DNA from: Fimicolochytrium jonesii
Lineage: Eukaryota
DNA: 64,000 bases
Assembly: GCF_025526975.1 (NCBI RefSeq)
Contig: NW_026515692.1
Coordinates: 62,001-126,000, forward strand
Reading direction: 5' to 3'
Shown: piece by piece, positions 1 to 49,474 of the stretch
How the letters are laid out: each line of letters begins with the position of its first letter
How positions within the stretch are numbered: position 1 is the stretch's first letter
Translations under genes and position numbers: made by a program
The notes under the pieces: generated by a model
The model's input: only the letters and a program-made list of their open reading frames with translations
Database searches by the model: none
What the model was told of the DNA's origin: nothing

Positions 1-317
1 AAAAGGCGGCATAACGAAGGAGAAAATGAAAGAGGCAAAGCGCCGCAGTGATGCGGCCTAGAGACGGGAGCGAGACAAGATGATGAAGCGACTCCAGTAC
101 TTGCGAAAGCACATGGATGATTCCTCTTCGAGTGATGATGGAGACGGTGACGGAAACGGCGGGGGAGGTGGTCCAGGGGGTTCGCCTGGTGGAGGCGGAG
201 CCGGAGCCAGTGGAGCCACCGGTGCCGGGGCAGCGGCGGCTATCATGGTGGCAGGGTAAGGTGCTGAAGTCGTATATAGTGCCCAGAAGCTGCCCCAGTA
301 TGTGTGTTCTGTATGTC

Positions 318-1690
318 TCATTCGGACGTAGTCGTCGCCGGCTGTCTATTGCTAGCGACATGACCTTCTTGAATTGCTTGAATAAATTTCGTATGTGTCT
401 CGGGAGGAAAGGGCTTTGTGAAGTAATTAGCCAGTTGTTCCTGCGTTGCGCTGTCGAGGAGTACGACGTCTTTCTTTGCCACGCCGTCGTGTAGCTTGTG
501 GTAGCGTACGTAGATGTGTTTGGAGCTTTGACTAATAGCCGTGGAGTTGGCAATCTTGCGGGCGCTTTGATTGTCAATGTGGATTGGCGTGGGGTCCTTG
601 ATGTTGCCGTATTCGTCGCCGAAGACCTTCGCGATGATCGAGCAGAGCCAGTAGACCTCGTTGTAACCAAGGGCTGCGGCGATATACTCAGCTTCCGTGG
701 AGCTGAGAGCTACACACTTCTGTTTGGTGCTTTCCCAGTAGATAAGCTGGCCTTTGAAGAAGCTGGCGATGCCCGCGGTAGATTTGCGGTTGTTGACATC
801 GTCTGCGTAGGATGCGTCTGTATAGACGCTAAGTCCAGCCTGATCTGAATGACCGGACTTGTAGGTAAGCTCGAAGGTGCAGGTACCTTTCAGGTAGCGC
901 ATGATGCGAAGTACATCATTCCAGTCGGCTTGGGTAGAAGCTGAGACTTGACGTGCGACGAAGCCTACGGCAGTTGAAATATCCCAGCGCCAGGTAATGG
1001 ATGCCCACGTGAGGGCCCCAACTGCTTCCTGGTAGAGAAGCTTGTTAGGAAAAGGGGGGCTTGCGGAGGTGGTCGGGTACGCGCAGAGACGGCGCACGGC
1101 GTAGAGACCGGGGTAGCTTTTTGTTGTCCAAATCGTTCGAGTAAACCGTCGATAGAGGTAACATTGCTGATTTTGAGTTGGTTCCCGGACGGCGAGAGCT
1201 GGTAATTGAAGACCAGACCCAGGCAGTTTTTGATGGGACCGAGATCCGTACAGTTGAAATGAGAACATAGTTCACCTTTCACTTGCTTGACGTGTAAGGG
1301 AAAGCAGCAGGCGATGAAATTGTCCACATAGATAAGGAGCATCCGGAGGGCGACCAGAGTGCGCATCGTTGTCGCGCAGCGATAGAAGACGCAAGGGCAG
1401 TTCTTTAGCGCAGTAAAGCCGAGAGAACTGAGGGTTTTGCAAAGGGTACGGTACCAGAGAAGCGGAGATTGCGTCAGACCATATAGAGCCTTGCGTAAGA
1501 GGTATACCCAGTCTGCACGCAGCTTGTGCAGATCTTCGTAGCCTTGAAATTGTTCAACATAGACGGGTCCATCGATATCGCTGCGTAAGAACGCGTTGGG
1601 GACGTTGAGTGGATGGATTTCCATACCGAGAGAGACAGCAATGGAGAGGAAAAGGCGAAGAACTGACATGGGTAGGGTTGGAGCGTAGGT
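318..1690 (-). pseudogene. Ty1/Copia reverse transcriptase + RNase H remnant (frameshifted, 5' truncated), left-arm copy
   Basis: AFLRSDIDGPVYVEQ, KALYGLTQSP..W, LLIYVDN (degenerate YVDD), YTDASYA..NRKSTAG, KQKCVALSSTEAEYIA, IHIDNQSA, SKHIYVRYH, split over two frames. Confidence 0.9.
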
Positions 1691-1746
1691 GTCGTTATAA
1701 TCAATACCCTTGGATTGACAAAAACCTTGAACTACACTGCGGCCCT

Positions 1747-3654
1747 TGTCGGGGATATCTCATCTTCACTTGTATTTCATATTATATCTCTTTACTTTTA
1801 CTTGATCTGAGACCCGGGCTGGCCACCCAAGCTCGTAAGACGCAAACGGCCCATAAGACGGTGAGACCAGCAGCCCCTCCAGCTGCACCTCCGCCAGGAC
1901 CCTCACGACCGACTACGCGCTCTACGCGCGCTTCGTCCGCAGCGTCCGCAAGCGGCTCTTCGATATCGAAAGCCCGAGTTAGAGAAGCTCTTCGATTGGC
2001 GACAGAGGTATCGACGTTGAGGACGCACAAACTCAAGCTATCGTTGCGGCTGTCGCAGCTGCTTTTGCTACTCAGCAGTGTGCTGTTACGCAAGACACCC
2101 AACGAGCCGAACGCTTCAGACTTCTTATGGACGCTTGCGAGAACAAGCTCGTCGAATACGATGGCGCCAAAGCTGCCAAAAAGACCGAAGAGTTCGTTAC
2201 ATCTCACCACAACTTTCTCGAGTCTTTCACTGTCCCGGCTGTAGCAGCTGGAACAGACGGTACTGGAGCTGCCAATGCCATACCCTTTACTATGGCAGAG
2301 TATGCTCCTACGCTCACTACCTCCCTCAAGGGTACTGCTCTTGAGTGGTACAATACGACTTACGCCGCTGGACCTCCCGCAAATTGGGCAGGTTTTGAAA
2401 CGGCTCTTGTCGCTCACTTTTATCCTCGCAATTTGCGTAATACTATTGAGCTCAAGCTCTCTGGCCTCAAGCTCGGCGACTCTCTTGAGAAATATATCAA
2501 GGAGTTTCAAGACACCAATAATGAGCTCGAAGCTGCTCATCGTCTCGATAACACCCAAGGTACAATTCCCCTTATCGATCAGATTCGATACTTCAAGGCC
2601 GGTCTTCTCAGGAATACGGTAATCAGTCATTATCTCGCTGAAGCCGTTACGAACTTCGAAGTCTCGGGCACTACCAATATCAACACCCCTATCACTCTCG
2701 ATCAAGCTATCACTGCAGCTCGTCGTGCTCATGTGGCTCACAGGTTCACTGACGGCAAGCAAGCCAATACGCCTCGTCCGATCGCCTCGGCAACAAGTGC
2801 TTGTGGCGGCGGCGGAGCCAGTCGCGGTCGAGGTAGTCGTGGCAGTGGTCGTGGCGGACGATTTGCCCTTTACACCAATTCTCGAATTACGGAATTCGAG
2901 CAAGACTTAGGTGATATGACCTTTGGGCTCAATGCCCTCAGTACGTCATACTATCCCCCTGGAGTGAGTCGTCTCACTACAGGTCAAGTTCTCTACCAAC
3001 GTCAACAGCCCTTCCGTCGACGTGGACAATGGCAAACTACTCACGTTCCTCGTCAACGTCCAATGACTCCTTGTCCCCTTTGTAACAAAATGGGACATTG
3101 GAGTGTTGAATGCTGGTCAAATCCCAAAAATTGACAGCAAGGCTCGCAAACCCAGAACCGACACGGTGGTTTTTGACAGCGCGGTCGTGGCGCTCAAACT
3201 CAGCAGCGCAGTCGCCAACCTAATCAACAACAAGGTTCAGCCAATCAGGTTGATGCTGGGTCACGCATCACGGAAATTCTCGATGACGCCGTCAACTCTG
3301 CGAATACTACAAATACTACTACAAATCAATCTTCGAGTTTTTTCCAAGGTCATTAGAGCCCCTCGGTAGCTCTGCTCGGCCTACAACATACGATCCTACC
3401 GATAAACCTGCGTTTGCACCACTGTCTGCTGGACTCTGGGTCTCTCATTGTCGCATCGGAAACAAGTTTGCTCGTGTTCTTTTCGATAGCGGCGCAACTG
3501 GGTTATTCCTTGATAAGACATTCTTCGAAAAGCACAAATTTCCCAAGAAACGTATCGAATTGAAGCAGATATGGCTGGCCGACAAAGAATCATACATGAT
3601 TCTCGAAACGTTCGTTTCGGAAAAGTTAGATCTATGGGATCTCGAATCTCAGTC
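1747..3654 (+). mobile_element. Ty3/Gypsy-type 5' fragment: LTR-like start, gag (2127-3134) and aspartic protease (about 3400-3654), cut at the palindrome centre
   Basis: Gag motifs LKGTALEWY..NWAGFETALVAHF and CCHC knuckle CPLCNKMGHWSVEC. Protease ARVLFDSGATGLFLD (GAT at 3485) is in the frame of ORF 3560. TGTCGGGGATATCTCAT at 1747 is shared with the LTR at 10376. Confidence 0.8.
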
Positions 3655-3705
3655 GGGTTCACAAAGTACTTCCTCGACTTGGGAAGTTGTTCAACTAAGA
3701 AAAGT

Positions 3706-5613
3706 GACTGAGATTCGAGATCCCATAGATCTAACTTTTCCGAAACGAACGTTTCGAGAATCATGTATGATTCTTTGTCGGCCAGCCATATCTGCTTCAA
3801 TTCGATACGTTTCTTGGGAAATTTGTGCTTTTCGAAGAATGTCTTATCAAGGAATAACCCAGTTGCGCCGCTATCGAAAAGAACACGAGCAAACTTGTTT
3901 CCGATGCGACAATGAGAGACCCAGAGTCCAGCAGACAGTGGTGCAAACGCAGGTTTATCGGTAGGATCGTATGTTGTAGGCCGAGCAGAGCTACCGAGGG
4001 GCTCTAATGACCTTGGAAAAAACTCGAAGATTGATTTGTAGTAGTATTTGTAGTATTCGCAGAGTTGACGGCGTCATCGAGAATTTCCGTGATGCGTGAC
4101 CCAGCATCAACCTGATTGGCTGAACCTTGTTGTTGATTAGGTTGGCGACTGCGCTGCTGAGTTTGAGCGCCACGACCGCGCTGTCAAAAACCACCGTGTC
4201 GGTTCTGGGTTTGCGAGCCTTGCTGTCAATTTTTGGGATTTGACCAGCATTCAACACTCCAATGTCCCATTTTGTTACAAAGGGGACAAGGAGTCATTGG
4301 ACGTTGACGAGGAACGTGAGTAGTTTGCCATTGTCCACGTCGACAAGAGGGCTGTCGACGTTGGTAGAGAACTTGACCTGTAGTGAGCCGACTCACTCCA
4401 GGGGGAAAGTATGACGTACTGAGGGCATTGAGCCCAAAGGTCATATCATCTAAGTCTTGCTTGAATTCCGTAATTCGAGAATTGGTGTAAAGGGCAAATC
4501 GTCCGCCGCGACCACCGCCACGACTACCTCAACCGCGACTGGCTCCGCGGCCGCCACAAGCACTTGTTGCCGAGGCGATCGGACGAGGCGTATTGGCTTG
4601 CTTGCCGTCAGTGAACCTGTGAGCCACATGAGCACGACGAGCTGCAGTGATAGCTTGATCGAGAGTGATAGGGGTGTTGATATTGGTAGTGCCCGAGACT
4701 TCGAAGTTCGTAACGGCTTCAGCGAGATAATGACTGATTACCGTATTCCTGAGAAGACCGGCCTTGAAGTATCGAATCTGATCGATAAGGGGAATTGTAC
4801 CTTGGGTGTTATCGAGACGATGAGCAGCTTCGAGCTCATTATTGGTGTCTTGAAACTCCTTGATATATTTCTCAAGAGAGTCGCCGAGCTTGAGGCCAGA
4901 GAGCTTGAGCTCAATAGTATTACGCAAATTGCGAGGATAAAAGTGAGCGACAAGAGCCGTTTCAAAACCTGCCCAATTTGCGGGAGGTCCAGCGGCGTAA
5001 GTCGTATTGTACCACTCAAGAGCAGTACCCTTGAGGGAGGTAGTGAGCGTAGGAGCATACTCTGCCATAGTAAAGGGTATGGCATTGGCAGCTCCAGTAC
5101 CGTCTGTTCCAGCTGCTACAGCCGGGACAGTGAAAGACTCGAGAAAGTTGTGGTGAGATGTAACGAACTCTTCGGTCTTTTTGGCAGCTTTGGCGCCATC
5201 GTATTCGACGAGCTTCTTCTCGCAAGCGTCCATAAGAAGTCTGAAGCGTTCGGCTCGTTGGGTGTCTTGCGTAACAGCACACTGCTGAGTAGCAAAAGCA
5301 GCTGCGACAGCCGCAACGATAGCTTGAGTTTGTGCGTCCTCAACGTCGATACCTCTGTCGCCAATCGAAGAGCTTCTCTAACTCGGGCTTTCGATATCGA
5401 AGAGCCGCTTGCGGACGCTGCGGACGAAGCGCGCGTAGAGCGCGTAGTCGGTCGTGAGGGTCCTGGCGGAGGTGCAGCTGGAGGGGCTGCTGGTCTCACC
5501 GTCTTATGGGCCGTTTGCGTCTTACGAGCTCGGGTGGCCAGCCCGGGTCTCAGATCAAGTAAAAGTAAAGAGATATAATATGAAATACAAGTGAAGATGA
5601 GATATCCCCGACA
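3706..5613 (-). mobile_element. Mirror copy of the Gypsy gag-protease fragment (right arm), with an extra CGA>TGA stop in gag
   Basis: Reverse complement of 1747-3654. ORF 4529..5233 ends at GASRG* where the left arm reads GASRGR. Confidence 0.8.
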
Positions 5614-5669
5614 AGGGCCGCAGTGTAGTTCAAGGTTTTTGTCAATCCAAGGGTATTGATTATAACGAC

Positions 5670-7042
5670 ACCTACGCTTCAACCCTACCCATGTCAGTTC
5701 TTCGCCTTTTCCTCTCCATTGCTGTCTCTCTCGGTATGGAAATCCATCCAGTCAACGTCCCCAACGCGTTCTTACGCAGCGATATCGATGGACCCGTCTA
5801 CGTTGAACAATTTCAAGGCTACGAAGATCTGCACAAGCTGCGTGCAGACTGGGTATACCTCTTACGCAAGGCTCTATATGGTCTGACGCAATCTCCGCTT
5901 CTCTGGTACCGTACCCTTTGCAAAACCCTCAGTTCTCTCGGCTTTACTGCGCTAAAGAACTGCCCTTGCGTCTTCTATCGCTGCGCGACAACAATGCGCA
6001 CTCTGGTCGCCCTCCGGATGCTCCTTATCTATGTGGACAATTTCATCGCCTGCTGCTTTCCCTTACACGTCAAGCAAGTGAAAGGTGAACTATGTTCTCA
6101 TTTCAACTGTACGGATCTCGGTCCCATCAAAAACTGCCTGGGTCTGGTCTTCAATTACCAGCTCTCGCCGTCCGGGAACCAACTCAAAATCAGCAATGTT
6201 ACCTCTATCGACGGTTTACTCGAACGATTTGGACAACAAAAAGCTACCCCGGTCTCTACGCCGTGCGCCGTCTCTGCGCGTACCCGACCACCTCCGCAAG
6301 CCCCCCTTTTCCTAACAAGCTTCTCTACCAGGAAGCAGTTGGGGCCCTCACGTGGGCATCCATTACCTGGCGCTGGGATATTTCAACTGCCGTAGGCTTC
6401 GTCGCACGTCAAGTCTCAGCTTCTACCCAAGCCGACTGGAATGATGTACTTCGCATCATGCGCTACCTGAAAGGTACATGCACCTTCGAGCTTACCTACA
6501 AGTCCGGTCATTCAGATCAGGCTGGACTTAGCGTCTATACAGACGCATCCTACGCAGACGATGTCAACAACCGCAAATCTACCGTGGGCATCGCCAGCTT
6601 CTTCAAAGGCCAGCTTATCTACTGGGAAAGCACCAAACAGAAGTGCGTAGCTCTCAGCTCCACGGAAGCTGAGTATATCGCCGCAGCCCTCGGTTACAAC
6701 GAGGTCTACTGGCTCCGCTCGGACATCGCGGAGGTCTTCGGCGACGAATACGGCAACATCAAGGACCCCACGCCAATCCACATTGACAATCAAAGCGCCC
6801 GCGAGATTGCCAACTCCACGGCTATTACTCAACGCTCCAAACACATCGACGTACGCTACCACAAGCTACGCGACGGCGTGGCAAAGAAAGACGTCGTACT
6901 CCTCGACAGCGCAACGCAGGAACAACTGGCTAATTACTTCACAAAGCCCTTTCCTCCCAAGACACATACGAAATTTATTCAAGCAATTCAAGAAGGTTGT
7001 GTCGCTAGCAATAGACAGCCGGCGACGACTACGTCCGAATGA
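5670..7042 (+). pseudogene. Ty1/Copia RT + RNase H remnant, right-arm copy
   Basis: ORFs 5691..6395 and 6092..7042 carry the same Copia motifs. RSKHIDVRYH is intact here. Confidence 0.9.
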
Positions 7043-7594
7043 GACATACAGAACACCCATACTGGGGCGGCTTCTGGGCACTATATACCACTTCAGCATC
7101 TTACCCTGCCACCATGATAGCCGCCGCTGCCCCGGCACCGGGGGCTCCACTGGCTCCGGCTCCGCCTCCACCAGGCGAACCCCCTAGACCACCTCCCCCG
7201 CCGTTTCCGTCACCGTCTCCATCATCACTCGAAGACGAATCATCCATGTGCTTTCGCAAGTACTGGAGTCGCTTCATCATCTTGTCTTGCTCCCGTCTCT
7301 AGGCCGCATCATTGCGGCGCCTTGCCTCTTTCATTTTCTCCTTCGTTATGCCGCCTTTTCCTTTATATCGCGACTCCAAGACTGCCTTACATCCCAGGTA
7401 GTCTGCCTCCTCCATCAATGTCTCGAACAACCCCTTCTTTCGCTTCGATCGATCCAGTTTCGCCTTCGTAAACGCCAGGTGCTTGGCAAGGTTCTCATGG
7501 TTATCCTTCCGGTACCTCAACGTCGCCACCTCCGTCGCCAATCGAAGAGCTTCCCTCACTTGGGCTTTCGACATCGAAGAGTCGCTTGTCCCCG

Positions 7595-7809
7595 GTTAGG
7601 GTTCCCGTAGTTTATTTCCTCACATGACTCCCCTCCCGCTTACGCCACGCTTCCGCGTACGGGACTTCACTCTTTTCTTCCCTTCCGGACCTCGCGTCCT
7701 CTTTCTACTTCAGACTTCTCTGCATTACTTCTTATACAATACAGTACTACATCTCACACAACATAGAGTTCGCTCAGTCATCTGCTTCCTCTGCCGACTA
7801 CTGCTAAGT
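7595..7809 (+). repeat. 5'-truncated Copia LTR in + orientation, same family as 9396-9630
   Basis: Clear similarity to the reverse complement of about 9396-9600, ending ...ctctgccgactactgctaagt. Confidence 0.85.
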
Positions 7810-9630
7810 GAACCTACCTACGGGAACCCTAACTAAGGACTCGGGAGGATGATACCTCCAACACCCCCACTCAAACTCACGAGTCTATCTAAGTGAAAGA
7901 TAAATCTGAACAATGAGTAGAAGGTGATCGTGCGCGAGAAGTGGGCGGTTGCGGGATGTGTATTATACGCCGGTATGGATGCGAAGACCTTGATTACTGG
8001 ACGTATAGGTAAGCGCGACGGTGCGGGTTCGTTGAATGCAGCGCATGATGTGAAGTACATCTTCCCGGTCGGCTTGGGTACGGAGCTGAGACCTGACGAC
8101 GACGAAATGAAGCCGACGGCAGTTGAAATGTCGCAGCGCCGAGATGCCCACGTGACGGCCCCCACTGCTTCCGGGTGGAGAGAGTGTTCAAATGGGGAAA
8201 CTGCAGAGGCGGGTTGGGTACGCGCTGAAATGGCGTATGGTGTGGAAGCCGGGGTAGCGTTTTGTTGTCCAAATCGGGTTAATCCGTTGATGGGGGTAAC
8301 GCCTTTGAGTCTCTTTATCAGTGCATTTCGCAGCTGATATAAGAGGTTTGGTAAGACCGGGACCTGAAAAACACCCCGCGGGGAGCGGGCGCGTTGCCAC
8401 TGGACGTAGGGTGGATGAGAATCCCCGCAAGTCCAATAAGGCGGTGGTGGTCTTGAAGAGATGGATCTAGTACGGTGTCCTTTTTCTGCGAAGTAAGGGT
8501 ACTAGAATCCATACAGCCCGAATTCGCCGTGAAGAGGCAGTCGTCGTGTGTGGCTGGGATTTGAACGTGCATGGCGTGCGCCATGGAAGGGGCAGCGGGG
8601 GCCTCCTTCTTATTGTTCATTGGGGATGTTACCAAGGTAACTGTTACTGGGGTAGCTGGCTGCCGTTCCGGGGCTTGATAAGCGTATGGAGCGGTGTAGG
8701 CCGTTGCGCGCTGAGAAGGCGCATGAGGTGGCTGTCGTCCTGGGGCTTGATAAGCGTATGGGATGGAGTAAGCCGTAGCGCACTGAGAAGGCACATGGGG
8801 TGGCCTCAGAGGTTCACTTCGGTGATCAGCGAAAGGAGGGCCTTGAGTGCCGGGTTGAGGTGCCGGTGTAGGGCTAGCCGAATCAGAACAAGTGCTGAAT
8901 ACTGGCGATTGGGTGAGCGGGTTCACTGAGGGGACGGTAGGTCCGCCTTGTTGTGGCGCTCGTTCCTGATTCAAGAGAGAGGTAACTAGTCCAGCCGTCC
9001 TCTCAGCGAAGAAGCCTTCTTCCTGCTTGATAGGAATATACCCTTCCTGATTGGGATCCATAATTGGGGCCGTCAGGAATGGGTTGATTTCGGTTTCCAC
9101 GGCTCCGCGCAATTCAGGCGCATCCACATACGGCGTGGTTGCGTCTCTCAACTCTGCCAAAGTTGCAGAAAACCTCTCCTTCCCCTTCTCCCCTTCCACA
9201 TATCCACCAGGCATTTTGTCGGCGTCAGCGGGTCCAGGCAAGCGCGTATTAGGGGCAGAGGGCTTGCCGGCTGCTAATGCAGCAGAGCGTGCTTTCTGAG
9301 TTTGTTGAATCGAAGTTGGGAGTCGGCGCCGGGAGACCAAGAGTTCTTTATCCTGACCCACCCGCTAGTTGCGGGCGGAGCCAGGGCTCATAACCACTTA
9401 GCAGTAGTCGGCAGAGGAAGCAGATGACTGAGCGAACTCTATGTATGGTGAGATGTAGTCCTGAGAAGTATGTATTCAAGTCTCTTGTGGAAAGAGGACG
9501 CGAGGTCCGTAGGGGAAGAAAAGAGTGAAGTCCCGTACGCGTAAGCGTGGCGTAAGCGGGAGGTGAGTCACAAGGGGAACCTAGCTACAGGAACCCTAAC
9601 TAAGGACTCGGGAGGATGATACCTCCAACA
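7810..9630 (-). mobile_element. Internally deleted, non-autonomous Ty1/Copia element: 5' LTR 9630-9396, PBS 9395-9381, gag-like ORF 8318..9361, RT remnant about 7960-8310, PPT, truncated 3' LTR 7863-7810
   Basis: LTR TGTTGGAGGTATC...CTAAGT is followed by GGTTATGAGCCCTGG (half-tRNAiMet PBS, as in copia/Ty5). GAGTGGGGG precedes the second TGTTGGAGGTATC. EAVGAVTWASRRCDISTAVGF matches the arm RT region. Confidence 0.85.
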
Positions 9631-10375: not shown

Positions 10376-10585
10376 TGTCGGGGATATCTCATATTCGCGG
10401 TTGCTGCACTTCCCAAAATTCCGCTGTGGATGAAAAGCACTAACCCTAAACCCCAACCCTAACCCTAAGGAAAAGCCTGCAAAACGAGGTGGTTTACCCC
10501 TTTCTCTATAGACAACGCAGCATAGACTACTAGTACAACCTGACCTTTGTCGGCTACTGCCGATCTAGTAGGTTATGAGCCCTGG
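10376..10585 (+). mobile_element. Copia-type 5' LTR (10376-10570) plus PBS (10571-10585), internal region lost
   Basis: TGTCGGGG...CTAGTA followed by GGTTATGAGCCCTGG. The 3' end (gtcggctactgccgatctagta) resembles that of the other Copia LTR. Confidence 0.7.
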
Positions 10586-11082: not shown

Positions 11083-11916
11083 CTAAAAGCAGTCAGGGAT
11101 CTGCCTCCGGAAGATGCGGGTTGCATTTTTTGCCGCGCTCTGTCCACAGTGGGTCAACTCCCAATGCTGAAGTAAGGCGGACAACACCTTGAACCGCCGT
11201 CTGCAATTGATGCAGGGATAATGATCTGGCTCGTGGGTGATCAAATGTTCGTTGAGTTGGCTGAGTTGCGGAAAGGACCTGTTACAAACGCAGCAAGCAT
11301 AACCCGAGCCGTTCCAACTTCTGCTGGTGGCTTTCTCCGGAAGGGAAGGATGATCTCCGTAAGTGATTCGAGGCTGGAGGATGGTACCAGGGAGTCCCGT
11401 AGCACGCTCGCATACACGGACGATGTTCTTGATTTGTTTGCGGGTCATCGGCATGACCTCGCAATTGCCGGATTCGATGTGTTGCGTCAGACCCGAGAAG
11501 GTCCGGAATGATTCCCCACAGTAGTTGCAATCCACCGTCCGCTGCGTATGAATTCCCGAATTTACATGCTGGTCGAAGTCTTGCTCTCGGCGGAAGGTGC
11601 GGCCGCAATCGGCACAGCTAGGATGCTCTTCTTCGATGTGACGGGCGAGGGCATCGTCGTCTTGGCAGACGTTGTTGCAGTATTCGCAGGTAGAATGATA
11701 TTGATGGAGGTGGTCGGAGTAGTCACTGTCGCTCCAGAAGTACTCCTCCCACCAGGCGCATTTGACATGCATGGCGCGCGAGTGTTGATGCAATGACTGA
11801 GGGGTCGAAAATACCCTGGCGCAAACAGTGCAAGGGAAGTGGGTCGCCCACTGATGCTGGTAGAGAGAGCTGCTCGTACGGAAGCACCTGTCGCAGATGG
11901 GACAGTCGTAATACAT
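11083..11916 (-). CDS. C2H2 zinc-finger protein (277 aa, intronless)
   Basis: Multiple CxxC-x12-HxxxH fingers (CPICDRCF..LYQHQWATH, CADCGRTF..HVNSGIH) and the fungal-type HIESGNC motif. Confidence 0.85.
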   Translation of the reverse strand: MYYDCPICDRCFRTSSSLYQHQWATHFPCTVCARVFSTPQSLHQHSRAMHVKCAWWEEYFWSDSDYSDHLHQYHSTCEYCNNVCQDDDALARHIEEEHPSCADCGRTFRREQDFDQHVNSGIHTQRTVDCNYCGESFRTFSGLTQHIESGNCEVMPMTRKQIKNIVRVCERATGLPGTILQPRITYGDHPSLPEKATSRSWNGSGYACCVCNRSFPQLSQLNEHLITHEPDHYPCINCRRRFKVLSALLQHWELTHCGQSAAKNATRIFRRQIPDCF

Positions 11917-12156
11917 GGCGCCGAAGGCTCAGGCAATGGTTTCCATTCCAGTTCCGTTGGCTGTAAGGTAAGCCAGGAAAAGCGCAAGGCAGCGTCGACA
12001 CTTTCCTGCAGCGGACTGCCCGCAAGGTCAAGGAAACTGTGTGTTGTATACTGTATATGTACTGTATATGCCAAGGAAGAAGGAAGAGCAGAATGCGTTT
12101 TGGACAGCGCCTCGATGAATTTTGACTTGGAGCGGATGGCAATGGCATCCACGCGT

Positions 12157-12353
12157 TGTGGTGCGGTGAGGAAACAGGTCATATTGCCGCAACCCTAACT
12201 CCCTGCGGTAACCCTACCCCACTAGCTAGTTTATATCCCCAGTCACCTGACTTGTTGTCGTATTTTTCTACTTGTACATATCCGCGCGCGACTGCGCCGG
12301 CTTTCTCTTTTCTTCTTTACCCATAATACATCTATATATCCCTGCCTACCTCA
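12157..12353 (+). repeat. 5' LTR
   Basis: TGTGGTGCGGTGAGG...CCTACCTCA, duplicated at 20618-20814. Confidence 0.97.
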
Positions 12354-12356
12354 TTC

Positions 12357-12367
12357 TGGTGGAGAAT
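12357..12367 (+). promoter_or_regulatory. Primer-binding site, probably for tRNA-Ala
   Basis: TGGTGGAGAAT, 3 nt after the LTR, is complementary to the ...ATTCTCCACCA 3' end typical of eukaryotic tRNA-Ala. Confidence 0.7.
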
Positions 12368-12780
12368 TGGGAAGTAGGTGTTTTGGGGACACCCACACCG
12401 TCGCTACAACCGCAACAAAGAAGAGTATCCGTTCTTCCGTTTCGTCCATACTTGGTGTACCGTTTTGAGCATTCCACGCCATTCCCGCCACTTTCCGCGT
12501 GGCTATAGCGATTTCCTTAGTTACCGGCGGCGATCCCCGGCATCCATCCATCCATCAGTTCCCGACAACAATCCACCAATCCGACGACGGCTTCCTAGGC
12601 ATCATCGTCCCGGCTATCCATTCCCGCTGAGTATCCATCGATTGGACCACTCTCCGCAACGATCCATTCATACACGTCGTCGTCCCGTGAGAAAAGCCCA
12701 GCTTGAGGTGCAGCCTGGATTTGGGCACTCGCAACAACACAGAGACCGTACTTTTCGTAACCGTCCGTCGAGAATATCCA

Positions 12781-14547
12781 ATGGCGTTCCCTGGCACTCC
12801 CGCCTTCTTCGGAAGCAACGATTGGCGTGACACTCGTCCTCTTTTTAGCGACACCCAAGAAGACAATGAACTCAGCGAGCACGACAGCAGCGACGGCCAC
12901 TCCGCTTGCGCCTGCGCTACGGAGTCCGCGCACGCGCGCATCGACGCCTTCCTTGCCCGCTCACAAATCGAGCATGCGGGTGTAAAGATCGGATTGTATG
13001 GCGCCATTTCGCATGTCGATGCAGAAGTCCTTGTCGGCTTGCTTCAATTCTGTACCGATATGGGCATTAGCTTCGATTCAGTATGTGAAGGCTTAGCGGA
13101 CGGTACCCTTGATCGAGTCTACGTCCAATCCCTCAAGTTCGCACTCGACGCTCATCCCGCGCAATTCGCCCTCCGTGAATTTGCGAACATCGTCAAAACT
13201 GCCACTGTTTGGCGTCTCTCGCGTGATCGCTACCATGCCGGCCCGCATGCGGCGACTCGTCCTCAGTCGGCGCCCTCAAACAACCCTACTTCTCGTCCTC
13301 CGCATCGCGCTGGTGCTATACCTTCGGCACCTGTAGCCGCTGCCCCTCTAGATGGCGCCGTTAGTCAACAGGATCTCGTCACGTTGATGTTCCGCACCCT
13401 CGAACAACTTCAGCGCACCCCGCAGACAACCAATTCACAAGCGTCACTCAACAAAGGCCTGCCCAAATACGAAGGCAATAAATATCATCAGGACTCGTCA
13501 CGAATCTTGCAATGGCTCCGCACCTTCGACAAGCTCGCTGACTCTTGCGGCGTTCAAGAAAAGGACCGCTTCCGTTGGCTGTCTAAGGCGATTGATGACA
13601 AAGACCAGCTCACTTGGACATGGTTTACGTCGTATCAAGGCAACACCCAAGATTGGAACCACGTTCGTACCGATATGGTTTTAGAATGCGCCTCGTCGGT
13701 CGACCGCGACCCGTCGCTCCTCGCCGACCGCATCTCAACCTTCCAGCGCGCTCCGGGGCAAACCATTCGTCAGTACGGCAGCCTATTCTTGTCATTAGTT
13801 TACGAACTCGAATACCTCAATAAACACATTGCAACGGTCGCTACGGAACTCACCCGGACCCAAATTGCTCGAGCTTTTATCCGCGGTCTAGGCGATAGTG
13901 CTACGCTGGCGCACGCGCTTGGTTTGCCGAACTTCAACCAGCTTCCAATCGAGGAGTTGATTCGGGCTTGCGCCGATTACGCCGAACGCAAGGACGCATA
14001 CTCAGCGCCAAACGTGCCGTATCAGGCGTCGACTCGTCCATCGTACCCCGCACCGACGGCTACGAACATCCCGGGCACCAACAACCAGTATCCCTCAAAT
14101 GCGCGGAACCAGCGTCCTTCGGTACCTCGCGCACAGCCCGCTCCACGGGTCTTGCAACCAGCGCCGCAAGCTTCGGCCCCGACGACTTCGGCGGCTCCGG
14201 CAGCGTCTGGTCCGGATGACTTGACTGCCCGCATGCGCGACCTTTCCATCAAGACCGCCGGTAATAGCAACCAGTATCCTCCGGGCCTTCCCAGCGCGCG
14301 CCCTCAACGCCGCGACCGCGCCTGCTTTCGTGGCGGACAATCCGGCCACATCTTCAGGGATTGTCAATCCACCACGAAACTGGATACCTGGCATGGGTAC
14401 CAGTTAGCGGCCGCCTTCTACCCCAAAGAAGTCCATGAGTACGACGAAGATCATACCGAATATTACTCGATGGTCCTCCGCGATGTGGGCCACTACTACG
14501 CGGACCCGGAAGACCAGGATTTTCCCAATGGGAGCTCGGAGCAGTAG
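12781..14547 (+). CDS. gag: Gag of the Gypsy element
   Basis: Long ORF (12703..14547; first ATG 12781) with capsid-like LPKYEG..ILQWLRTF..TWF..DWNHVR..FQRAPGQTIRQY and a degenerate knuckle CFRGGQSGHIFRDC. Confidence 0.85.
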   Translation: MAFPGTPAFFGSNDWRDTRPLFSDTQEDNELSEHDSSDGHSACACATESAHARIDAFLARSQIEHAGVKIGLYGAISHVDAEVLVGLLQFCTDMGISFDSVCEGLADGTLDRVYVQSLKFALDAHPAQFALREFANIVKTATVWRLSRDRYHAGPHAATRPQSAPSNNPTSRPPHRAGAIPSAPVAAAPLDGAVSQQDLVTLMFRTLEQLQRTPQTTNSQASLNKGLPKYEGNKYHQDSSRILQWLRTFDKLADSCGVQEKDRFRWLSKAIDDKDQLTWTWFTSYQGNTQDWNHVRTDMVLECASSVDRDPSLLADRISTFQRAPGQTIRQYGSLFLSLVYELEYLNKHIATVATELTRTQIARAFIRGLGDSATLAHALGLPNFNQLPIEELIRACADYAERKDAYSAPNVPYQASTRPSYPAPTATNIPGTNNQYPSNARNQRPSVPRAQPAPRVLQPAPQASAPTTSAAPAASGPDDLTARMRDLSIKTAGNSNQYPPGLPSARPQRRDRACFRGGQSGHIFRDCQSTTKLDTWHGYQLAAAFYPKEVHEYDEDHTEYYSMVLRDVGHYYADPEDQDFPNGSSEQ

Positions 14548-14563
14548 GGGACTCCGACCTCCC
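14517..14563 (+). promoter_or_regulatory. Putative -1 programmed ribosomal frameshift signal (G_GAU_UUU plus stem-loop)
   Basis: GGATTTT at 14517-14523 in gag phase, 6-nt spacer, then hairpin GGGAG-C-TCGGAG / CTCCGA-C-CTCCC (14530-14563). The -1 frame is open into pol. Confidence 0.8.
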
Positions 14564-17500
14564 GCAATACGATCCTCCGGATCCCCGCCCAATGTCGTTG
14601 GCGATTTTTATGGCTGAGAAGAGAAAAGCGGATGAGCTCCCGTCCGAACCGGCTTCGAAACGACTGAACACTTCGACGCACCCGATGCCCTTCCCGGCAC
14701 GGCCCCCGCTCAAGACTCGTCCCTCGGTGACGCCCGCCCGCCCGCCGGGTGTCCTTCCTTCACGTTACACTGTCGGTCAACAACAGAGTACGCCGATGCC
14801 GGCGCGGTTTCCCCCGGTACCTCCCCCGCCGACCAGATTACCTCCTACACCCATTGTCGAGTTACCTCGCGTTACTCCACCGCCTAAATCGGTACGCTTC
14901 AACACTCCCACCAGTACACCGATGGAGATCGATCCCCGGGGGACATCCGGTCCAACCCGACCTGCCGCACCGCACAAGCCGCCGTCACCGATTGTTCCCA
15001 CCCGCAAGTCCCCCTCACCGCCGCCCCGCGCCGATTCCCCGGTCGGTGATGACGATCCGCGCATTCCTGCTCCCATCCGTGCGCTGATTGACAAGAAACA
15101 ATTCGATATCGTCAACTTCCTCAACGAGACTGAAGTGCGCGGACTTACTCTCGCTGACCTACTCCAATGGAGCCCGGCCTTACGCGAACGCCTCCGCGAC
15201 GCGATGAAACTCGTCCCCAAGGTGCGCCGCGCGGCTCTATGTTTTCGCAAACCTCTACTTGGTGCCTGGCACCCTGACACTGAGCCTCCGGACCATGACA
15301 ACGACAACACCCTCGACGGACGTCTCGACTTTCACCTCAAAGCTCTCTCCAAGGTTGATGTTTCCGCAACCGGCACCCATTACATGAACGCGCTCATCCA
15401 GAATTCGCCCGCGAAGTGCCTCTTCGACGGTGGTTGCTGCTTGATCGCCATCAGCGCCGAGGTCCGCAAGCGCCACCAATGGACTCTCACCAAGGTTCCT
15501 CCTACCTTTCATTTGCGCCAAGTTGACGGTTCCGCTCCTAAGCTCGAGGGAGAGGTCCACAACCTCGTCGTCACCATCGAGGGTCATCAAGTTCCGATCA
15601 ACGTCCTTTCCATCGTCGGAATGGACGCCGAGTGCTTACTAGGTCGTCCATTTCTGGAGATGGTAATGGGCATCACCCATTGGAAGAATTCCATTTACCA
15701 TTTCAAGATTCACGGCTCCTGGATCCTCGTCCAAGGTAGCACTGGAGAGACGCGCGAAGTCCGTACCCTCACGGCGGCCGAGGAACGTGAATGGGATCAG
15801 CACGGTCGTACACCCCTTCTCGATATCACTCCTCCGGCGCCACGCACCCGTTCCCAAACCAGGCAAGCCAACATCTCCTCATTGATCGCTGACGGCTTCA
15901 AGGTGGAGATCGATCACACGGGCGATCAGACGCTCGCTGACATTCGTAGTGGCGCTCTCTTCGGCATACTACAAACTGAGCCCTGTCCACCCCTACCCGG
16001 CGACGACTATTCCCCGGATTCCGATCAGATGGATTTCCGCATCAACCTGCTACGCACCTTCGCGAATGCCCCGGTCCCCAACCAGATCACCGTCCCGGCT
16101 TTCCGACAACTTAAACAGGCTTTGCAACTCGAGCCCAAACTGCCCGAATTCACTCTCCCCGCGACACATGAGTTCCGCTTCCTCACGTGGAATGTTAATT
16201 CTTTGCGCAACCTCGTCCGCAAGGGGGTCGACCTGGGCTCCCTCTTCAACCGCCTGAACCTCGATATCGTTTGTTTCCAAGAAATCAAGTGTTCGCGTTC
16301 TTCATTACCGCTGTCGCTCACGGACATTCCGGGTTACCGCTCCTTTTGGTCGCTCAGTGAGACCAAACAAGGTGTCAAAGGCGTTGGGACGTACGTCCGC
16401 GCTGAGTTAGCCGCTACGCTACGCAAGGTCACAACCGACGCTGATCTACCGATCGACCCGGACGCCGATTGTGAGGGCCGTGTTCTCGCCCTCGACTTCG
16501 ACCAATGCACCGTGATCAACGTCTATTATCCGAACGGCGGGATGGGCGACGCTGATCAACAGGCTCATGCGATTACTTCCAAGATCGCCCTCCATCAGAC
16601 TCTGCTTCAGATCGCCACCGCGGCCCGGACGAGCGGACGACATGTCATATTCGCCGGCGATTTCAACGTTGCGCATACCGATTCGGATGTTCACCCCAAC
16701 CTGAAACACCAGATGCACACCGGTGTGACCCCAGCGGAGCGACAACTGCTCACGCATTTGACCGATCACGATTTCGTCGACACTTACACTACCTGCCACC
16801 CTGACGCGCCGGCCGGTGATGGCTACACCACATGGTGGTTCTCCAAGCACGCGCGCGAACGGAACATTGGGCTTTGACTCGATTATATCTTCCTCGGTCT
16901 GCCGGATGCGGATTATACTCCTCATATCACTTGCGATGTCCTGCACGAACTCCACGGCTCCGATCACGTTCCGCTGTTATTCACCCTACGCACCATAGTC
17001 GAAGAAACGATCCCCGAGTATCACGCCAAGATGTCGTCGTTAGTCAACGCTTCCCCGGAGTACGTTTCGCCCCTAGCCCCCCGCGACTCACCTACGCTCG
17101 TCCGCCAAGTCGCCGGCATCACTATCGAGTCGATCACTGCGCGATCCATACGCCCGACACCCATGCGCCCACTCAAGGTCGGCACCCGCACCTTCCAGGT
17201 TGCCGAAGATTTACCACCCGCGGTCGTTACCGAGTTAGAACAACTTCTTCACGAATACCACGACGAGTTCTGCAATAAAGACGAAGTGCCCCGCACCTTC
17301 AAGAACGTGCCTGAAATGAATCCGGTCTTGAAGCCCGACCATACCGGTCAACGCAAACTCCCTTTCCCGAAAACGCGCGCGCACAGCCCCAAGGATACCA
17401 AGGTGTTAAACGAATGGTGCGACCGGATGCTCCGGTGGGACAAGATCGAGCTGGTTACCGATCCCCCAGTGGTCGCTGCGCTGCCCATCGTCGTCTACAA

Positions 17501-20351
17501 GAATGGTGTAGCGCGGGTATGTGCGCACTTCAAGGTCAACAGCGAGATCCAAGCTTTCCGGTACCCCATCATTCCCGCTCACCTTACCTTGCAACGTGTC
17601 GCCGCGGCCGACCGCATCACGGCCTTCGACTTCCGCCTCGGCTATCATCAGTCCCCACTCCATGTCGCCGCTCGTTACCTCACCACCATCTTACTTCCGC
17701 GCGGGATTTATCAGTACAAAGTCGGACCCATGGGCTTCATCGACACGGGCGAATGGTTCTCCTTCCAAATCGACACCATGATCGGCGAAGTCAAGTTACT
17801 CAAGGACCACACCCACCTCTTTCGCGACGACGCTTACCTGTGCGAAGACAATTTAACAGACCACTCCAGACCCACACACATTGACCGCCTCCGCGCATTC
17901 TTGGAAACCGCCCGCACTCACAACGCTTCAATCTCCGAGCACAAATGTCTCTTCGCCGCTGGCCGGGTCCCCGCGCTGGGCAAACTCGTCGGCAATCGAC
18001 AAATCGCGACCACCGCCAGTAAACTTGACGTCGTCGCCCAGTGGCCTACCCCACGCCATCAAGAAGACCTCCGTTCCTTCCGCGGTTTCATCGGCTTCAT
18101 CTCGGACGGGCTTCCTGACTACGGTCTCTTGATGGCACCTTTGAATACGCTCCTCCGCAAAGAATTTGCCGATAAACGCAAGTTCCGCGCCGAATGGCTC
18201 CGCTCCCAAGAGTACTGTCGCGCCTTTTTAGATGTCAAGCAGCTCGCATCCGACAGCTTCGTTCTTCACGCATACAACCCTAATCGGCCATTGATCATTG
18301 CCACCGACGGGTCCGGCACCGGCGCCGGGGTTGTGGTCGCTCATTGTCTCGATCCCGCCGATGACTACCGGGTTACGGCCGACACTCGCTACGTTCCATG
18401 TGAATTCTTCTCCCGCACATGGACCGGAGCCGAGCTTCACTACGAACAACCCGAACGAGAATTGGCTGCCATCATTTTCGGGTTGCTGAAAGCGGAAGTC
18501 CACCTCACCTTCGAATTCTACATTATCACGGATCATCAAGCTTGGGTCAAGTGTCAGAACGCGCATACCAAGAATCGACGCATCCTCAAATGGTTCAACT
18601 ACATCAACGCACTCCCTACCGCTGACGGTTGGCCGAAATATATCTTCCGCCGCACGGCCGCCCACATCGACGCCGACGCTCTCTCCCGTCGACCCGCAGC
18701 CCCGAGCGAACTTCTCACTTCCACAATCGACGATGAGCTGGATCTGACGCATCCGTGCCCGCTGAACGACATTCACATCAGCGCCAACATCAACCTCCTC
18801 ACGCTCGGTTGGGAACCGTACGACTCCATTCACGCTTACCTCCGGGGAGATCACGCATTCCTCGGTACCGACCCGGCACATGCTACGCGCATCCGCTCAT
18901 TGGCTCACCGCTTCTTCATCTACGACGGTCGCCTCTATCGCCGCAGCCTTCCTCGCATGCCACCCCGACTGGTCCCCCGTTTAGAGGATGTCGCAGCCAT
19001 CAAGCGTACCTTCCATGGCGACCATCCGGGCTCCTTTGGCCATCTCGGCGTCTTGACAGCGTATCAGATGATTGCCTTACGCTACTTCTGGTTCAACTTG
19101 TACAGCGACATTGAAGAGTGGGTGCGCGCCTGTCCAGTATGTCAGCTCCGTCAATTACGCCGCCCCAAGCAATACCAGCTGTTTCGCATCATTCCCCCGG
19201 CGCTCCTCTTCACGTTGTTAGGTCTCGACTGCGTCACCTACCCGAACGCCCAGATCGGTCGGTCTTCCCAAGTCTACATCGGCTGCCTCTGCGTCTTTGA
19301 TTACCCGTCCGGCTACGGTTGGGCCTACCCGCTCAAGGCGTTCGACGGCCTCAACATCGTTCTCGCGCTCCGCGATTGGTGCGCTCGGTATGGTGTCCCA
19401 GTTCACATCGTGGTTGACAACGCGCAGTATTTTATTGAAGGCGCATTCGCGGCATGGGCGTCCAGGAAATCGATCGAGCTCGTTCAAACGTCGACAATGC
19501 ACCCCATGGGGAATGGTCGGGCTGAGAAGTTTGTCCAGGACATCACTCGTGTTCTGTCTCACATCGTATTGCAACGGAACTTAGAAGCCAAGGTCGACCC
19601 CCCGGACCTGACGATTTGGCCCGACTGCCTCGATTCGGCGATGTACACTTACCTGAATCACGTCGCCCGGACCACAGCCGTTTCCCCCTACAACGTTGTA
19701 TTCGGCCAGCATTGCCACGTTCCCGGACATGCGACCACCGGCCTGCTCGACCCGGAAGCGCTCGACACCTTGCTCACTGACGAATACCGCGCCGACCGCG
19801 ACGTCCTCCGCACATGGGCTCTTCAGACCGCTAACCGCAACCGCATCCACGAAACCGAGGCCATCAACGCTACCCGCAAACCCCCGAGAACATATGCGGT
19901 CGGTGATTGGGTGTACGTTCATCGCAACGAGCTGGACACGACCTACGTCTCGACCCGCAAGCTCGTCAACCGTTGGACCGGTCCATATCAGATTTCCAAG
20001 GCTTACCCCGGTGGCGCCTATCTGCTCCTAGATGAACACGGGACCCCTGCTTTCAACTCGCGCCCTGTCAACCATCTCCGCTTAGTTCCCGCTCGAGTAC
20101 GCCCTGCGTGGTCCGCCCCCGCGTTTACCGCCGACCTCCCACTCCCGCTCCATGACGACCAATTGGATCCCCCTCCCAACGCTACGACTAAAGAGATCAA
20201 CAATGACTCTCTCTCCGTCCCTGAACCCATCCCGGACGACCTCCAAGTTTCCCTCGCCGTCCTTTCCGCGGCGCTTCCCTCAGACGACATCTCCTCATAT
20301 CCTTGCGAACGCCCCGTCGATCCCGCCCATCCTGTTCGCCGCAGGTGTTGA
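14520..20351 (+). CDS. pol: Pol polyprotein: protease, exonuclease III/AP endonuclease, RT, RNase H, integrase; one in-frame TGA at 16875-16877
   Basis: ORFs 14592..16877 and 17031..20351 are in the same frame, and 16878-17030 is open. PR: KCLFDGG..CLLGRPFL. RT: FDFRLGYHQ, PMGF, FRDD. RH: IATDGS..ERELAAI..TDHQ. INT: H..GHLG..CPVCQ, LGLD, VDNA, GRAE. Confidence 0.92.
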
Positions 20352-20600
20352 CTCTTCCTCTTTCGACTTCCCGCCTTTCTCCCGTTCCGCTTTTTTCTCG
20401 TTTCGGTTTTTTCGCTTTCGCTTCATCAACTCGAACGATCGCTCGCCTCCGTCACCACGCGCCCGCTAATGCCCCCGGGACGGTCCGTCTATACCGCGTC
20501 AGTGCCTCTGCGTCGATCAACGTCCTTTTCTTCTTCTTTTCGGTTTCGGATCACTTGTGTTGCGTCTTGTTTCGGTTTCTCGTGACTCGCTTGGCACTGT

Positions 20601-20617
20601 GGAGGCAGGGGGAGGAA
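20601..20617 (+). promoter_or_regulatory. Polypurine tract
   Basis: GGAGGCAGGGGGAGGAA immediately before the 3' LTR. Confidence 0.9.
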
Positions 20618-20814
20618 TGTGGTGCGGTGAGGAAACAGGTCATATTGCCGCAACCCTAACTCCCTGCGGTAACCCTACCCCACTAGCTAGTTTATATCCC
20701 CAGTCACATGACTTGTTGTCGTATTTTTCTACTTGTACATATCCGCGCGCGACTGCGCCGGCTTTCTCTTTTCTTCTTTACCCATAATACATCTATATAT
20801 CCCTGCCTACCTCA
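20618..20814 (+). repeat. 3' LTR
   Basis: Copy of 12157-12353, differing C/A at LTR position 91. Confidence 0.97.
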
Positions 20815-25649: not shown

Positions 25650-26240
25650 TTGAGCTTGGGTCGGAACTGCCGTCCGTGAGCTCTCCTCCATCTCAATCTG
25701 TTCGCGCATGACGATTACTCGTGCCAAGGTCTCGTATCATACTCGCCCGCAGTCGGGCTGGCGCTCTGGCGGCACTCTCTTCCAGAGTGAGTCAGTGCCC
25801 GGCGCTCTCTTGTGAGTGAGTGCCCGGCTTCAAGCAGCGCGAGTATGATACGAGTATGATGCGAGACCTTTGGCACGCGTAACCTCCCAATGCCCCTCAC
25901 GGCCGCAGCGCCAACATAGTTCGTTGGGAATTCCTCGAGAACGGGCTGGTTGGTCACCAGAGCTGGGGCGATGCGGAGCAGGGCACCTTGAGGCGAAATG
26001 TCCCTGACGGCCGCACTCAAATCGGATGACGGCATGCGTCGGATCTGGTGCGAAGCTGTCGCTGGAGAGGCGAATCAGATCCTCGCTAAGGTTCGCCGTA
26101 ACGTATGACCCTCCACGGACACGGTCAACCCCGTATTGTTCCATATAGCGCAACGTTAGCTCATCTTCCGATATGTCGCATATCGCGCGGGTCTCCAGCA
26201 ACCTGATCGGTCGGTGCAACTGTGTCCAAAGAGATTGCGA
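25650..26240 (-). pseudogene. GIY-YIG-like nuclease C-terminal half plus CCHC zinc knuckles, resembling proteins of large DNA viruses; frameshifted and MITE-interrupted
   Basis: WTQLHRPIRLLE...EDELTLRYMEQYGVDRVRGGSY, then FECGRQGHFASRC and CWRCGREGHWEV|NRHARTD. Confidence 0.7.
25718..25879 (-). mobile_element. MITE with TIRs and TA target-site duplication (Tc1/mariner-like), copy 1
   Basis: TA|CTCGTGCCAAGGTCTCGTATCATACTCG...GAGACCTTTGGCACGCG|TA. Homologous to 49475-49618 in the opposite orientation. Confidence 0.88.
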
Positions 26241-49300: not shown

Positions 49301-49474
49301 ATGGTTGGGGTTTGTTGTTTTAATGGCAGGGAATGGGCCAGAAAAGGGAGCTGTGGGAAAAGCGGAGTTGTTTCCTGCCTCGCGACGCGACTGCTCAAAC
49401 GTACAGTATGTGCGCAGTGCGCACGCCGCACTGAGCTTTCTTTTGTGGGGAAAGGCCACCTTGCCACCTAAATA

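What the first reader, a model, noticed from the sequence alone, without database searches (positions are those of the whole stretch)
1..7359. Retroelement palindrome of at least 7.3 kb with a 51-bp spacer centred inside a Gypsy protease
The arms are colinear with no net indel (x pairs with 7360-x) but are not identical. The inner ORFs translate identically, while substitutions cluster near 2800-3015 and in the outer 1 kb. The axis truncates a protease, which suggests fold-back after a break or template switch rather than two independent insertions. Transcription from the gag side would form a multi-kb hairpin covering both Gypsy and Copia sequence, a possible siRNA source against both. Long palindromes with short spacers are normally unstable.
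Basis: partly seen in the sequence, partly recalled or inferred. Interest (0 to 1): 0.7.

Follow-up and report, generated by a model that had tools for sequence, protein, structure and literature searches.

The report
Fold-back palindrome in dead chytrid retrotransposons
A 7.3-kb mirror-image duplication of dead jumping-gene debris sits in a chytrid fungus genome assembly; it likely arose when broken DNA folded back on itself and was likely later part-rewritten arm from arm, with no sign of a function and an assembly error not excluded.

Summary
The palindrome is there: arms 1-3654 and 3706-7359, 51-nt spacer, 44 substitutions, no indels. The host is a Spizellomycetales chytrid. Each arm holds a broken Copia RT/RNase H joined head-to-head to a Gypsy gag-protease. 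A homologue aligns with the protease through the spacer on the minus strand, so the right arm is likely the original and the left the fold-back copy. The differences look like real mutation: 30 transitions, 19 at CpG (p=3e-5), derived changes on both arms, no coding constraint. They form two tiers: 3.4% (1-775, 2811-3015) and 0.26% elsewhere. Both arms share inactivating changes, so a dead copy was duplicated. Best reading (0.55): an aged large-loop fold-back inversion, partly homogenised by arm-to-arm conversion. Rivals: a recent fold-back patched from a third copy (0.2), or a fold-back chimera polished with paralogous reads (0.2). The order is reported haploid, which weakens the two-haplotype version; zero indels (p 0.01-0.05) and the arm reaching the window edge keep the artefact alive. 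No reads or genome were available. The siRNA idea has no support: the Gypsy piece has no recognisable 5' LTR. A known kind of rearrangement; modest interest.

The parts
1..3654 (.). Left arm, likely the fold-back copy; cut by the window edge
   Evidence: the protease reading on this side stops matching the homologue at the arm end (vs 36)
3655..3705 (-). 51-nt spacer; at least its first part is native protease sequence continuing from the right arm (predicted hairpin loop)
   Evidence: P0121 aligns to residue 130 on the minus-strand reading and only to 123 on the plus-strand reading; no notable fold of its own, z=-0.69; no 12-mer match elsewhere in the window
3706..7359 (.). Right arm, likely the original copy; continuous with the element sequence at 7360 onward
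1..775 (.). Diverged outer block (mirror 6585-7359): 23 events, 3.0%
   Evidence: best BIC segmentation
776..2810 (.). Near-identical block (mirror 4550-6584): 7 events, 0.34%
2811..3015 (.). Diverged patch in the gag 3' part (mirror 4345-4549): 12 substitutions in 10 events, about 5%
3016..3654 (.). Identical inner block (mirror 3706-4344), 639 nt
318..1746 (-). Decayed Ty1/Copia RT and RNase H, 5'-truncated and frameshifted (mirror 5614-7042, +)
   Evidence: RVT_2 E=6e-35; 491 of 967 candidates at E<=1e-20; conserved Asp lost in both arms in RT (D in 32 of 33 homologues) and RNase H (D in 115 of 120)
1747..1767 (+). 21-nt match to the start of the LTR-like sequence at 10376; marks the junction that cuts the Copia RT (mirror 5593-5613)
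   Evidence: 20 of 21 identical
1949..2022 (+). 74-nt piece 89% like 7515-7588, joined to the Gypsy gag at about 2022 (mirror 5338-5411)
1983..3134 (+). Ty3/Gypsy-type gag with CCHC knuckle (mirror 4226-5377, -, with a premature stop at 4529-4531)
   Evidence: Retrotrans_gag E=1.3e-7
3287..3654 (+). Truncated Gypsy aspartic protease (mirror 3706-4073, -, continuing into the spacer)
7015..7595 (-). Interrupted ORF antisense to the Copia; it crosses the right end of the visible arm, and its 3' part is mirrored at the window start
   Evidence: no Pfam match above cut-off
7587..7809 (+). Copia-type LTR downstream of the right arm; a candidate place for the true arm end
   Evidence: 84% like the LTR at 9396-9630
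7810..9630 (-). Neighbouring deleted Copia element (5' LTR 9630-9396, primer-site-like motif, RT/RNase H fragment, start of 3' LTR 7863-7810); outside the visible palindrome
   Evidence: the primer-site label is recalled

Best explanation
This is a 7.3-kb-plus inverted duplication of a dead Copia/Gypsy nest in a chytrid assembly, likely genomic, which likely arose when a broken DNA end folded back across a 51-nt loop and was likely later part-homogenised by arm-to-arm gene conversion. Shown: the geometry, the element content, the inactivating changes shared by both arms, the mutation spectrum and the two tiers of divergence. Inferred: (1) a break in or beyond the Gypsy protease, resection, and pairing of a short inverted match across the loop, which primed copying back along the same strand and lost the rest of the Gypsy pol; (2) a second rearrangement left of the window that stabilised the product; (3) independent, CpG-rich decay of the arms to about 3.4%; (4) one patchy or two separate conversion events, about 0.26% ago, that re-copied 776-2810 and 3016-3654 from one arm to the other. 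It is predicted to be a functionless repair scar.
For: Polarity: the only protease homologue found aligns through the spacer on the minus strand and stops at the arm end on the plus strand. Loop size fits large-loop hairpins in MRE11/SAE2-proficient yeast, median 36 nt (PMC7467729 section 10). Biological spectrum: 30 of 44 transitions, p=2.5e-6; 19 of 30 CpG-type against 27% expected, p=2.9e-5; at 361-362 the arms read TG and CA, the two decay products of one CG; 5mC is confined to transposons in Spizellomyces (PMC12695648 passage). Neutral: 3 of 14 (RNase H ORF) and 2 of 11 (gag patch) changed codons are synonymous, against about 30% expected. Derived states fall on both arms: CpG kept by left 7 times, by right 11 times. 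One dead ancestor: a residue conserved in 115 of 120 homologues is lost in both arms at about nt 428, inside the diverged block. Two tiers: 33 of 980 against 7 of 2674, p=2e-13; the blocks within each tier do not differ (p=0.19, 0.21). A 200-nt diverged island between near-identical blocks cannot come from one crossover. Spizellomycetales are described as haplontic (PMC9457484 passage), so allelic mixing is unlikely and the two arms are the simplest two templates. Conversion tracts in human palindrome P6 average 2068 bp (PMC3723533 abstract).
Against: No reads, no genome and no relatives could be examined, so genomic reality is not shown. Zero indels in 44 substitutions is unusual beside four other repeat pairs in the window (12 indel events in 114 substitutions; P about 0.01, or 0.045 on gentler assumptions), and substitution-only patches are what SNP polishing would leave. 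The 205-nt patch is about one short-read fragment long (inference). The left arm reaches position 1, which may be a contig end. The priming microhomology could not be measured without an unrearranged copy. At strongly conserved RNase H positions the left arm is the derived one 5 times of 5, some asymmetry that would suit a third donor copy. The polarity test rests on one homologue at 36% identity and seven extra aligned residues (score 58.9 vs 57.0 bits). Ploidy is known for the order, not for this genome.
Confidence: 0.55

Rival explanations
1. A real but recent fold-back (arms about 0.26% apart) whose diverged blocks came from a third, older duplicate of the same dead nest. The outer block would be where the fold-back product was resolved by recombination at a repeat, and 2811-3015 an ectopic conversion tract.
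For: [quoted passage not shown] The left arm is derived at 5 of 5 strongly conserved RNase H positions. The step at about 775-880 is sharp.
Against: It needs a third copy of both the Copia and the Gypsy parts that shares the same inactivating changes; none is in the window. The two diverged blocks are statistically one tier, which one duplication age explains without extra donors.
Confidence: 0.2
2. An artefact: a fold-back chimera from amplification or long-read sequencing was assembled at a contig end, and polishing with reads from a second copy (paralogue or haplotype) put substitutions into blocks of the arms.
For: Palindromic reads are common after amplification (40-50% of Arabidopsis WGA reads, 0.5% of controls; PMC6218980 passages) and occur in about 0.55-0.6% of ONT genomic reads (PMC12870357 passages). 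The arm touches the window edge, the inner 639 nt are identical, and there are no indels.
Against: A chimera of one molecule has identical arms, so a second template of the whole Copia-Gypsy composite is still needed: differences fall in the Copia part, the junction (1829) and the gag. The order is reported haploid. All 11 homopolymer runs of 5 or more have the same length in both arms. The spacer is element sequence. A nearby 8.7-kb Gypsy with matching LTRs and a 4-bp target duplication is cleanly assembled.
Confidence: 0.2
3. A functional hairpin locus kept because read-through makes double-stranded RNA against both Copia and Gypsy families.
For: The geometry would give a near-perfect hairpin RNA of up to 3.6 kb if transcribed across the centre. 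The homogenised blocks cover both RT and gag.
Against: No promoter-bearing 5' LTR was recognised before the gag: only a 21-nt LTR-like terminus, then unrelated sequence. The differences are neutral. The Gypsy and Copia neighbours in the window show no or at most 76-89% DNA similarity to the arms. The RNAi status of the host was not established (listing only).
Confidence: 0.04
4. Two independent, head-to-head insertions of one composite element.
For: The two arms have the same content in opposite orientation.
Against: The centre is inside a protease, with no LTR or target duplication there; both copies end 51 nt apart; both share inactivating changes.
Confidence: 0.01

Closest known systems
Large-loop fold-back inversions in S. 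cerevisiae (Li, Putnam, Kolodner 2020, PMC7467729; abstract and sections 6, 10, 13 read)
   Same: Inverted duplication with a short native loop (51 nt here; median 36 nt in MRE11/SAE2-proficient strains) and loss of the sequence beyond the fold.
   Different: Those are freshly selected laboratory events. This one sits in an assembly of a natural fungus, inside dead retroelements, with aged, mosaic arms. The priming stem and the secondary rearrangement are not visible here.
Arm-to-arm gene conversion in sex-chromosome palindromes, e.g. human Y P6 (PMC3723533; abstract read)
   Same: Multi-kilobase blocks of near identity between inverted arms; the 2.0-kb block here is close to the reported mean tract of 2068 bp.
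   Different: Those arms are much longer, exceed 99.9% identity and were shown to convert by population genotyping. Here arms are 98.8% identical, carry no host gene, and conversion is inferred from one sequence.
Palindromic chimeras of whole-genome amplification and long-read fold-back artefacts (PMC6218980, PMC12870357; passages read)
   Same: Strand switch with little or no sequence between the two copies.
   Different: They copy one molecule, so the arms should differ only by read error; these arms differ by CpG-rich transitions without indels.
Ty1/Copia and Ty3/Gypsy LTR retrotransposon remnants in fungi (PMC3248453; three passages read)
   Same: Degenerate, nested elements at one locus are described as common.
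   Different: The passages seen describe nesting by repeated insertion, not a fold-back duplication of the nest.

Membership tests
Fold-back inversion (ssDNA hairpin-primed) | Inverted duplication with a short loop of native sequence | tested here: met
   51-nt spacer; protease homology continues into it on one strand
Fold-back inversion (ssDNA hairpin-primed) | Pre-existing short inverted match (stem) at the junction | tested here: inconclusive
   Needs the unrearranged copy; none found; the only homologue, P0121, ends inside the spacer
Fold-back inversion (ssDNA hairpin-primed) | Loss of sequence distal to the fold | tested here: met
   No Gypsy RT or RNase H follows the protease on either side
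Fold-back inversion (ssDNA hairpin-primed) | Secondary rearrangement ending the duplicated arm | not testable with these tools
   Lies left of position 1; no genome is held
Fold-back inversion (ssDNA hairpin-primed) | Present in native DNA molecules | not testable with these tools
   No sequencing run was listed
Palindrome with arm-to-arm conversion | Blocks of near identity beside blocks of older divergence | tested here: met
   33 of 980 vs 7 of 2674, p=2e-13
Palindrome with arm-to-arm conversion | Donor is the other arm, shown with an outgroup or population phasing | not testable with these tools
   No outgroup DNA; no genome-wide search for a third copy was possible
Amplification or sequencing fold-back chimera | Arms identical apart from read error | tested here: not met
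   44 substitutions, transition- and CpG-enriched, no indels; polishing from a second copy could still produce this
Amplification or sequencing fold-back chimera | Located at a contig end, with single-copy depth | not testable with these tools
   The window's place in its contig is not given; no reads
Ty1/Copia element (arm content) | RVT_2 reverse transcriptase followed by Copia-type RNase H | tested here: met
Ty1/Copia element (arm content) | Intact, active element (gag, protease, integrase, two LTRs) | tested here: not met
   RT cut at 1747/5613, frameshift, conserved Asp residues lost
Ty3/Gypsy element (arm content) | Retrotrans_gag with CCHC knuckle, then aspartic protease | tested here: met
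   (protease score just under the Pfam cut-off)
Ty3/Gypsy element (arm content) | RT, RNase H, integrase and paired LTRs | tested here: not met
   Absent from the arms, so the Gypsy label rests on gag and protease only
Hairpin-RNA (siRNA) locus | Transcript across the centre and small RNAs from the arms | not testable with these tools
   No RNA holder listed

The most novel reading that the evidence does not exclude
A chance fold-back captured pieces of two retrotransposon superfamilies in one long hairpin, and repeated arm-to-arm conversion keeps it paired in a haploid chytrid, where it acts as a self-renewing double-stranded-RNA source against both Copia and Gypsy elements.
Probability: 0.05. 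Interest if true: 0.6.

Novelty: new member of a known kind. Interest (0 to 1): 0.28.

Why it matters
If real, it is a natural example of a yeast-type large-loop fold-back inversion that survived long enough to drift about 3% and then be partly re-copied. It would show that a multi-kilobase palindrome with a 51-nt spacer can persist in a fungal genome without any gene to protect, and that arm-to-arm conversion acts outside sex chromosomes. That is a useful data point, not a new mechanism. One search for long retroelement palindromes in fungal genomes (9 listings seen) showed no matching report, which is weak evidence of absence. If it is an artefact, it warns that polished fold-back chimeras can mimic aged palindromes.

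Tried and rejected
No whole genome is held, so the left boundary and other copies could not be sought. No sequencing run was listed, DNA or RNA (no RNA holder listed), so no reads were laid; this is no evidence either way. Earlier-finding look-ups by place, sequence and words gave nothing for this genome; one search listed eight unrelated findings. The gag had no homologue among 7992 scored candidates of near length. A 20-nt spacer pattern gave 0 metagenome matches; the protease gave 290 pattern hits and 0 confirmed. The Atlas look-up of the antisense ORF was unavailable. A second, sequential hairpin inside the spacer was considered and dropped: 45 of 200 shuffles fold as well. A sequencing-adapter origin for the spacer was rejected because it reads as protease; no direct comparison with adapter sequences was run. 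Plain sequencing error was rejected on spectrum. Divergence between active family members was rejected because the differences are unconstrained and both arms share null-type changes. GC-biased conversion could not be tested without an outgroup; the strong/weak counts (15 left, 21 right) are uninformative. No supplementary files were opened; genome-level ploidy and sequencing details could bear on the artefact rival.
Full report
Observation. The palindrome is exact in geometry. Pairing x with 7360-x matches 3615 positions; the next best axis tested matches 1098. The arms are 1-3654 and 3706-7359 with 51 nt between. They differ at 44 positions and by no indel. The left arm is cut by the window edge. 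The right arm runs on into continuous element sequence at 7360, so the true length is unknown.

Host. An AAA ATPase at 29065-30489 is 100% identical over the 291 residues searched to a protein that its source names from Fimicolochytrium jonesii (contig 459,799 nt); the next hits include Spizellomyces at 92% and Geranomyces at 90%. The host is therefore a Spizellomycetales chytrid. Two order- or genus-level facts matter. Spizellomycetales are described as haplontic (PMC9457484, passages). In Spizellomyces, 5mC is confined to transposons (PMC12695648, passages). Neither was tested for this genome.

Arm content, from the centre outward on the right arm: a truncated aspartic protease (RVP_2, E=7e-4), a gag with CCHC knuckle (Retrotrans_gag, E=1.3e-7), a 275-nt junction piece, then in the opposite direction a 5'-truncated Copia RT (RVT_2, E=6e-35) and RNase H, then an antisense ORF of no known family. 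The junction piece begins with 21 nt matching the start of an LTR-like sequence at 10376 and ends with 74 nt that are 89% like 7515-7588. No full 5' LTR was recognised before the gag. Right of the arm lie a Copia-type LTR (7587-7809), a deleted Copia (7810-9630), a Gypsy integrase fragment and another LTR. The locus is a nest of decayed elements.

Which arm is original. The search of 1.84 billion representatives found one protease homologue, P0121. It aligns with the minus-strand reading to residue 130, seven residues into the spacer, and with the plus-strand reading only to residue 123, the arm end. So the spacer likely continues the right-arm protease, and the left arm is the copy. The evidence is thin (36% identity, 58.9 vs 57.0 bits) but points one way. 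This is the anatomy of a hairpin-primed fold-back: resection, pairing of an inverted match, extension (PMC7467729 section 6). Loops in MRE11/SAE2-proficient yeast have a median of 36 nt (section 10). The priming stem cannot be measured here, because no unrearranged copy was found.

Nature of the differences. 30 of 44 are transitions (p=2.5e-6 against one third). 19 of the 30 are CpG-type, against 27% of sites (p=2.9e-5). At 361-362 one arm reads TG and the other CA, the two deamination products of one CG. Synonymous fractions are 3 of 14 in the RNase H ORF and 2 of 11 in the gag patch, against about 30% for unselected change. Derived states occur on both arms: the CpG is kept by the left arm 7 times and by the right 11 times, the right gag has a private stop, and the left RNase H has lost five conserved residues. 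This is neutral decay of methylated repeat DNA, not read error. Both arms also share damage: an RT/RNase H frameshift, an Asp conserved in 32 of 33 homologues in RT, and an Asp conserved in 115 of 120 in RNase H, the last at about nt 428 inside the diverged block. The duplication copied an element that was already dead.

Two tiers. BIC segmentation prefers four blocks: 1-775 (3.0%), 776-2810 (0.34%), 2811-3013 (4.9%) and an identical inner block. Pooled, 33 events in 980 nt stand against 7 in 2674 (p=2e-13), and the blocks within each tier do not differ (p=0.19 and 0.21). The simplest history has two dates: duplication at about 3.4% and re-copying of most of the inner 2.9 kb at about 0.26%. 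The second date is close to the age of the intact Gypsy nearby (1 difference in 197 nt of LTR). A 200-nt old island between two young blocks suits patchy conversion and not a single crossover. Arm-to-arm conversion with 2-kb tracts is known from human P6 (PMC3723533, abstract). Conversion is inferred here, and its donor is not shown.

Against. (a) No reads or genome were available. (b) Four other repeat pairs in the window show 12 indel events in 114 substitutions, so zero in 44 has P about 0.01, or 0.045 when CpG changes or the most diverged pair are set aside. Those pairs are older and not an exact control, but substitution-only blocks are what SNP polishing would leave. (c) The arm reaches the window edge. 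(d) Palindromic reads are common in amplified DNA and occur in ONT data (PMC6218980; PMC12870357; passages). An artefact still needs a second template for the whole composite, and in a haploid that means another genomic copy plus a chimera at the same locus. I give it 0.2. A recent real fold-back patched from a third copy gets 0.2; it fits how yeast fold-backs are stabilised at repeats (section 13) and the 5-of-5 left-arm bias in RNase H. Together, a real fold-back has about 0.8.

Function. Nothing points to one. Both elements were dead before duplication, no promoter-bearing LTR was recognised, and the other elements in the window are at most 76-89% like parts of the arms.

Earlier findings. 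e1-9511556 reads a 38-kb palindrome with a 41-nt spacer in another genome the same way. It is an unchecked note and was used only as the lead to PMC7467729.

Verdict. The fold-back origin is likely, the mosaic likely reflects conversion, the siRNA role is unsupported, and an artefact is not excluded. New member of a known kind; interest 0.28. The Gypsy element with an exonuclease III domain at 12157-20814 may deserve more attention than the palindrome.

Noticed in passing
window 12157-20814 (+): A young, full-length Ty3/Gypsy element (197-nt LTRs with 1 difference, 4-bp target duplication) whose pol carries an exodeoxyribonuclease III domain in frame between protease and RT (TIGR00633 148.7 bits, cut-off 99; PF03372), with one in-frame stop at 16875-16877. 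Possibly an undescribed domain capture.
   Followed up: partly
window 7587-7863: Two related Copia-type LTR pieces meet tail to tail at 7809/7810: one LTR on the plus strand abuts the first 54 nt of another element's 3' LTR on the minus strand, giving 15-nt inverted ends. Likely an insertion into an LTR.
   Followed up: partly
window 7015-7595 (-) and 1609-2244 (+): An ORF of no known family lies antisense to the Copia after RNase H; a related 74-nt piece is joined to the Gypsy gag at about 2022. It may be an accessory antisense gene of these elements.
   Followed up: partly
window 7596, 7825, 9592, 10442-10468, 12191, 20652, 53250-53372: Telomere-like TTAGGG/CCCTAA motifs recur in several different LTRs and in a cluster near 53.3 kb; possibly a shared host-factor site (inference).
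   Followed up: no
window 49473-49620, 25716-25881, 53099-53137: A family of about 150-nt self-complementary repeats, MITE-like.
   Followed up: no
window 36457-39249 (+) and 42784-44773 (-): Two related, convergent genes with His-rich motifs resembling multicopper oxidases (label recalled, not tested), 66% alike in DNA over 360 nt, beside predicted secreted proteins at 31262-33411.
   Followed up: no
window 33620-33977 and 60536-61216: A 179-nt tandem pair at 99% identity, and short tandem arrays of 21-, 41- and 62-nt units.
   Followed up: no
window 11083-11928 (-): A multi-C2H2 zinc-finger gene wedged between the retroelement nest and the intact Gypsy.
   Followed up: no
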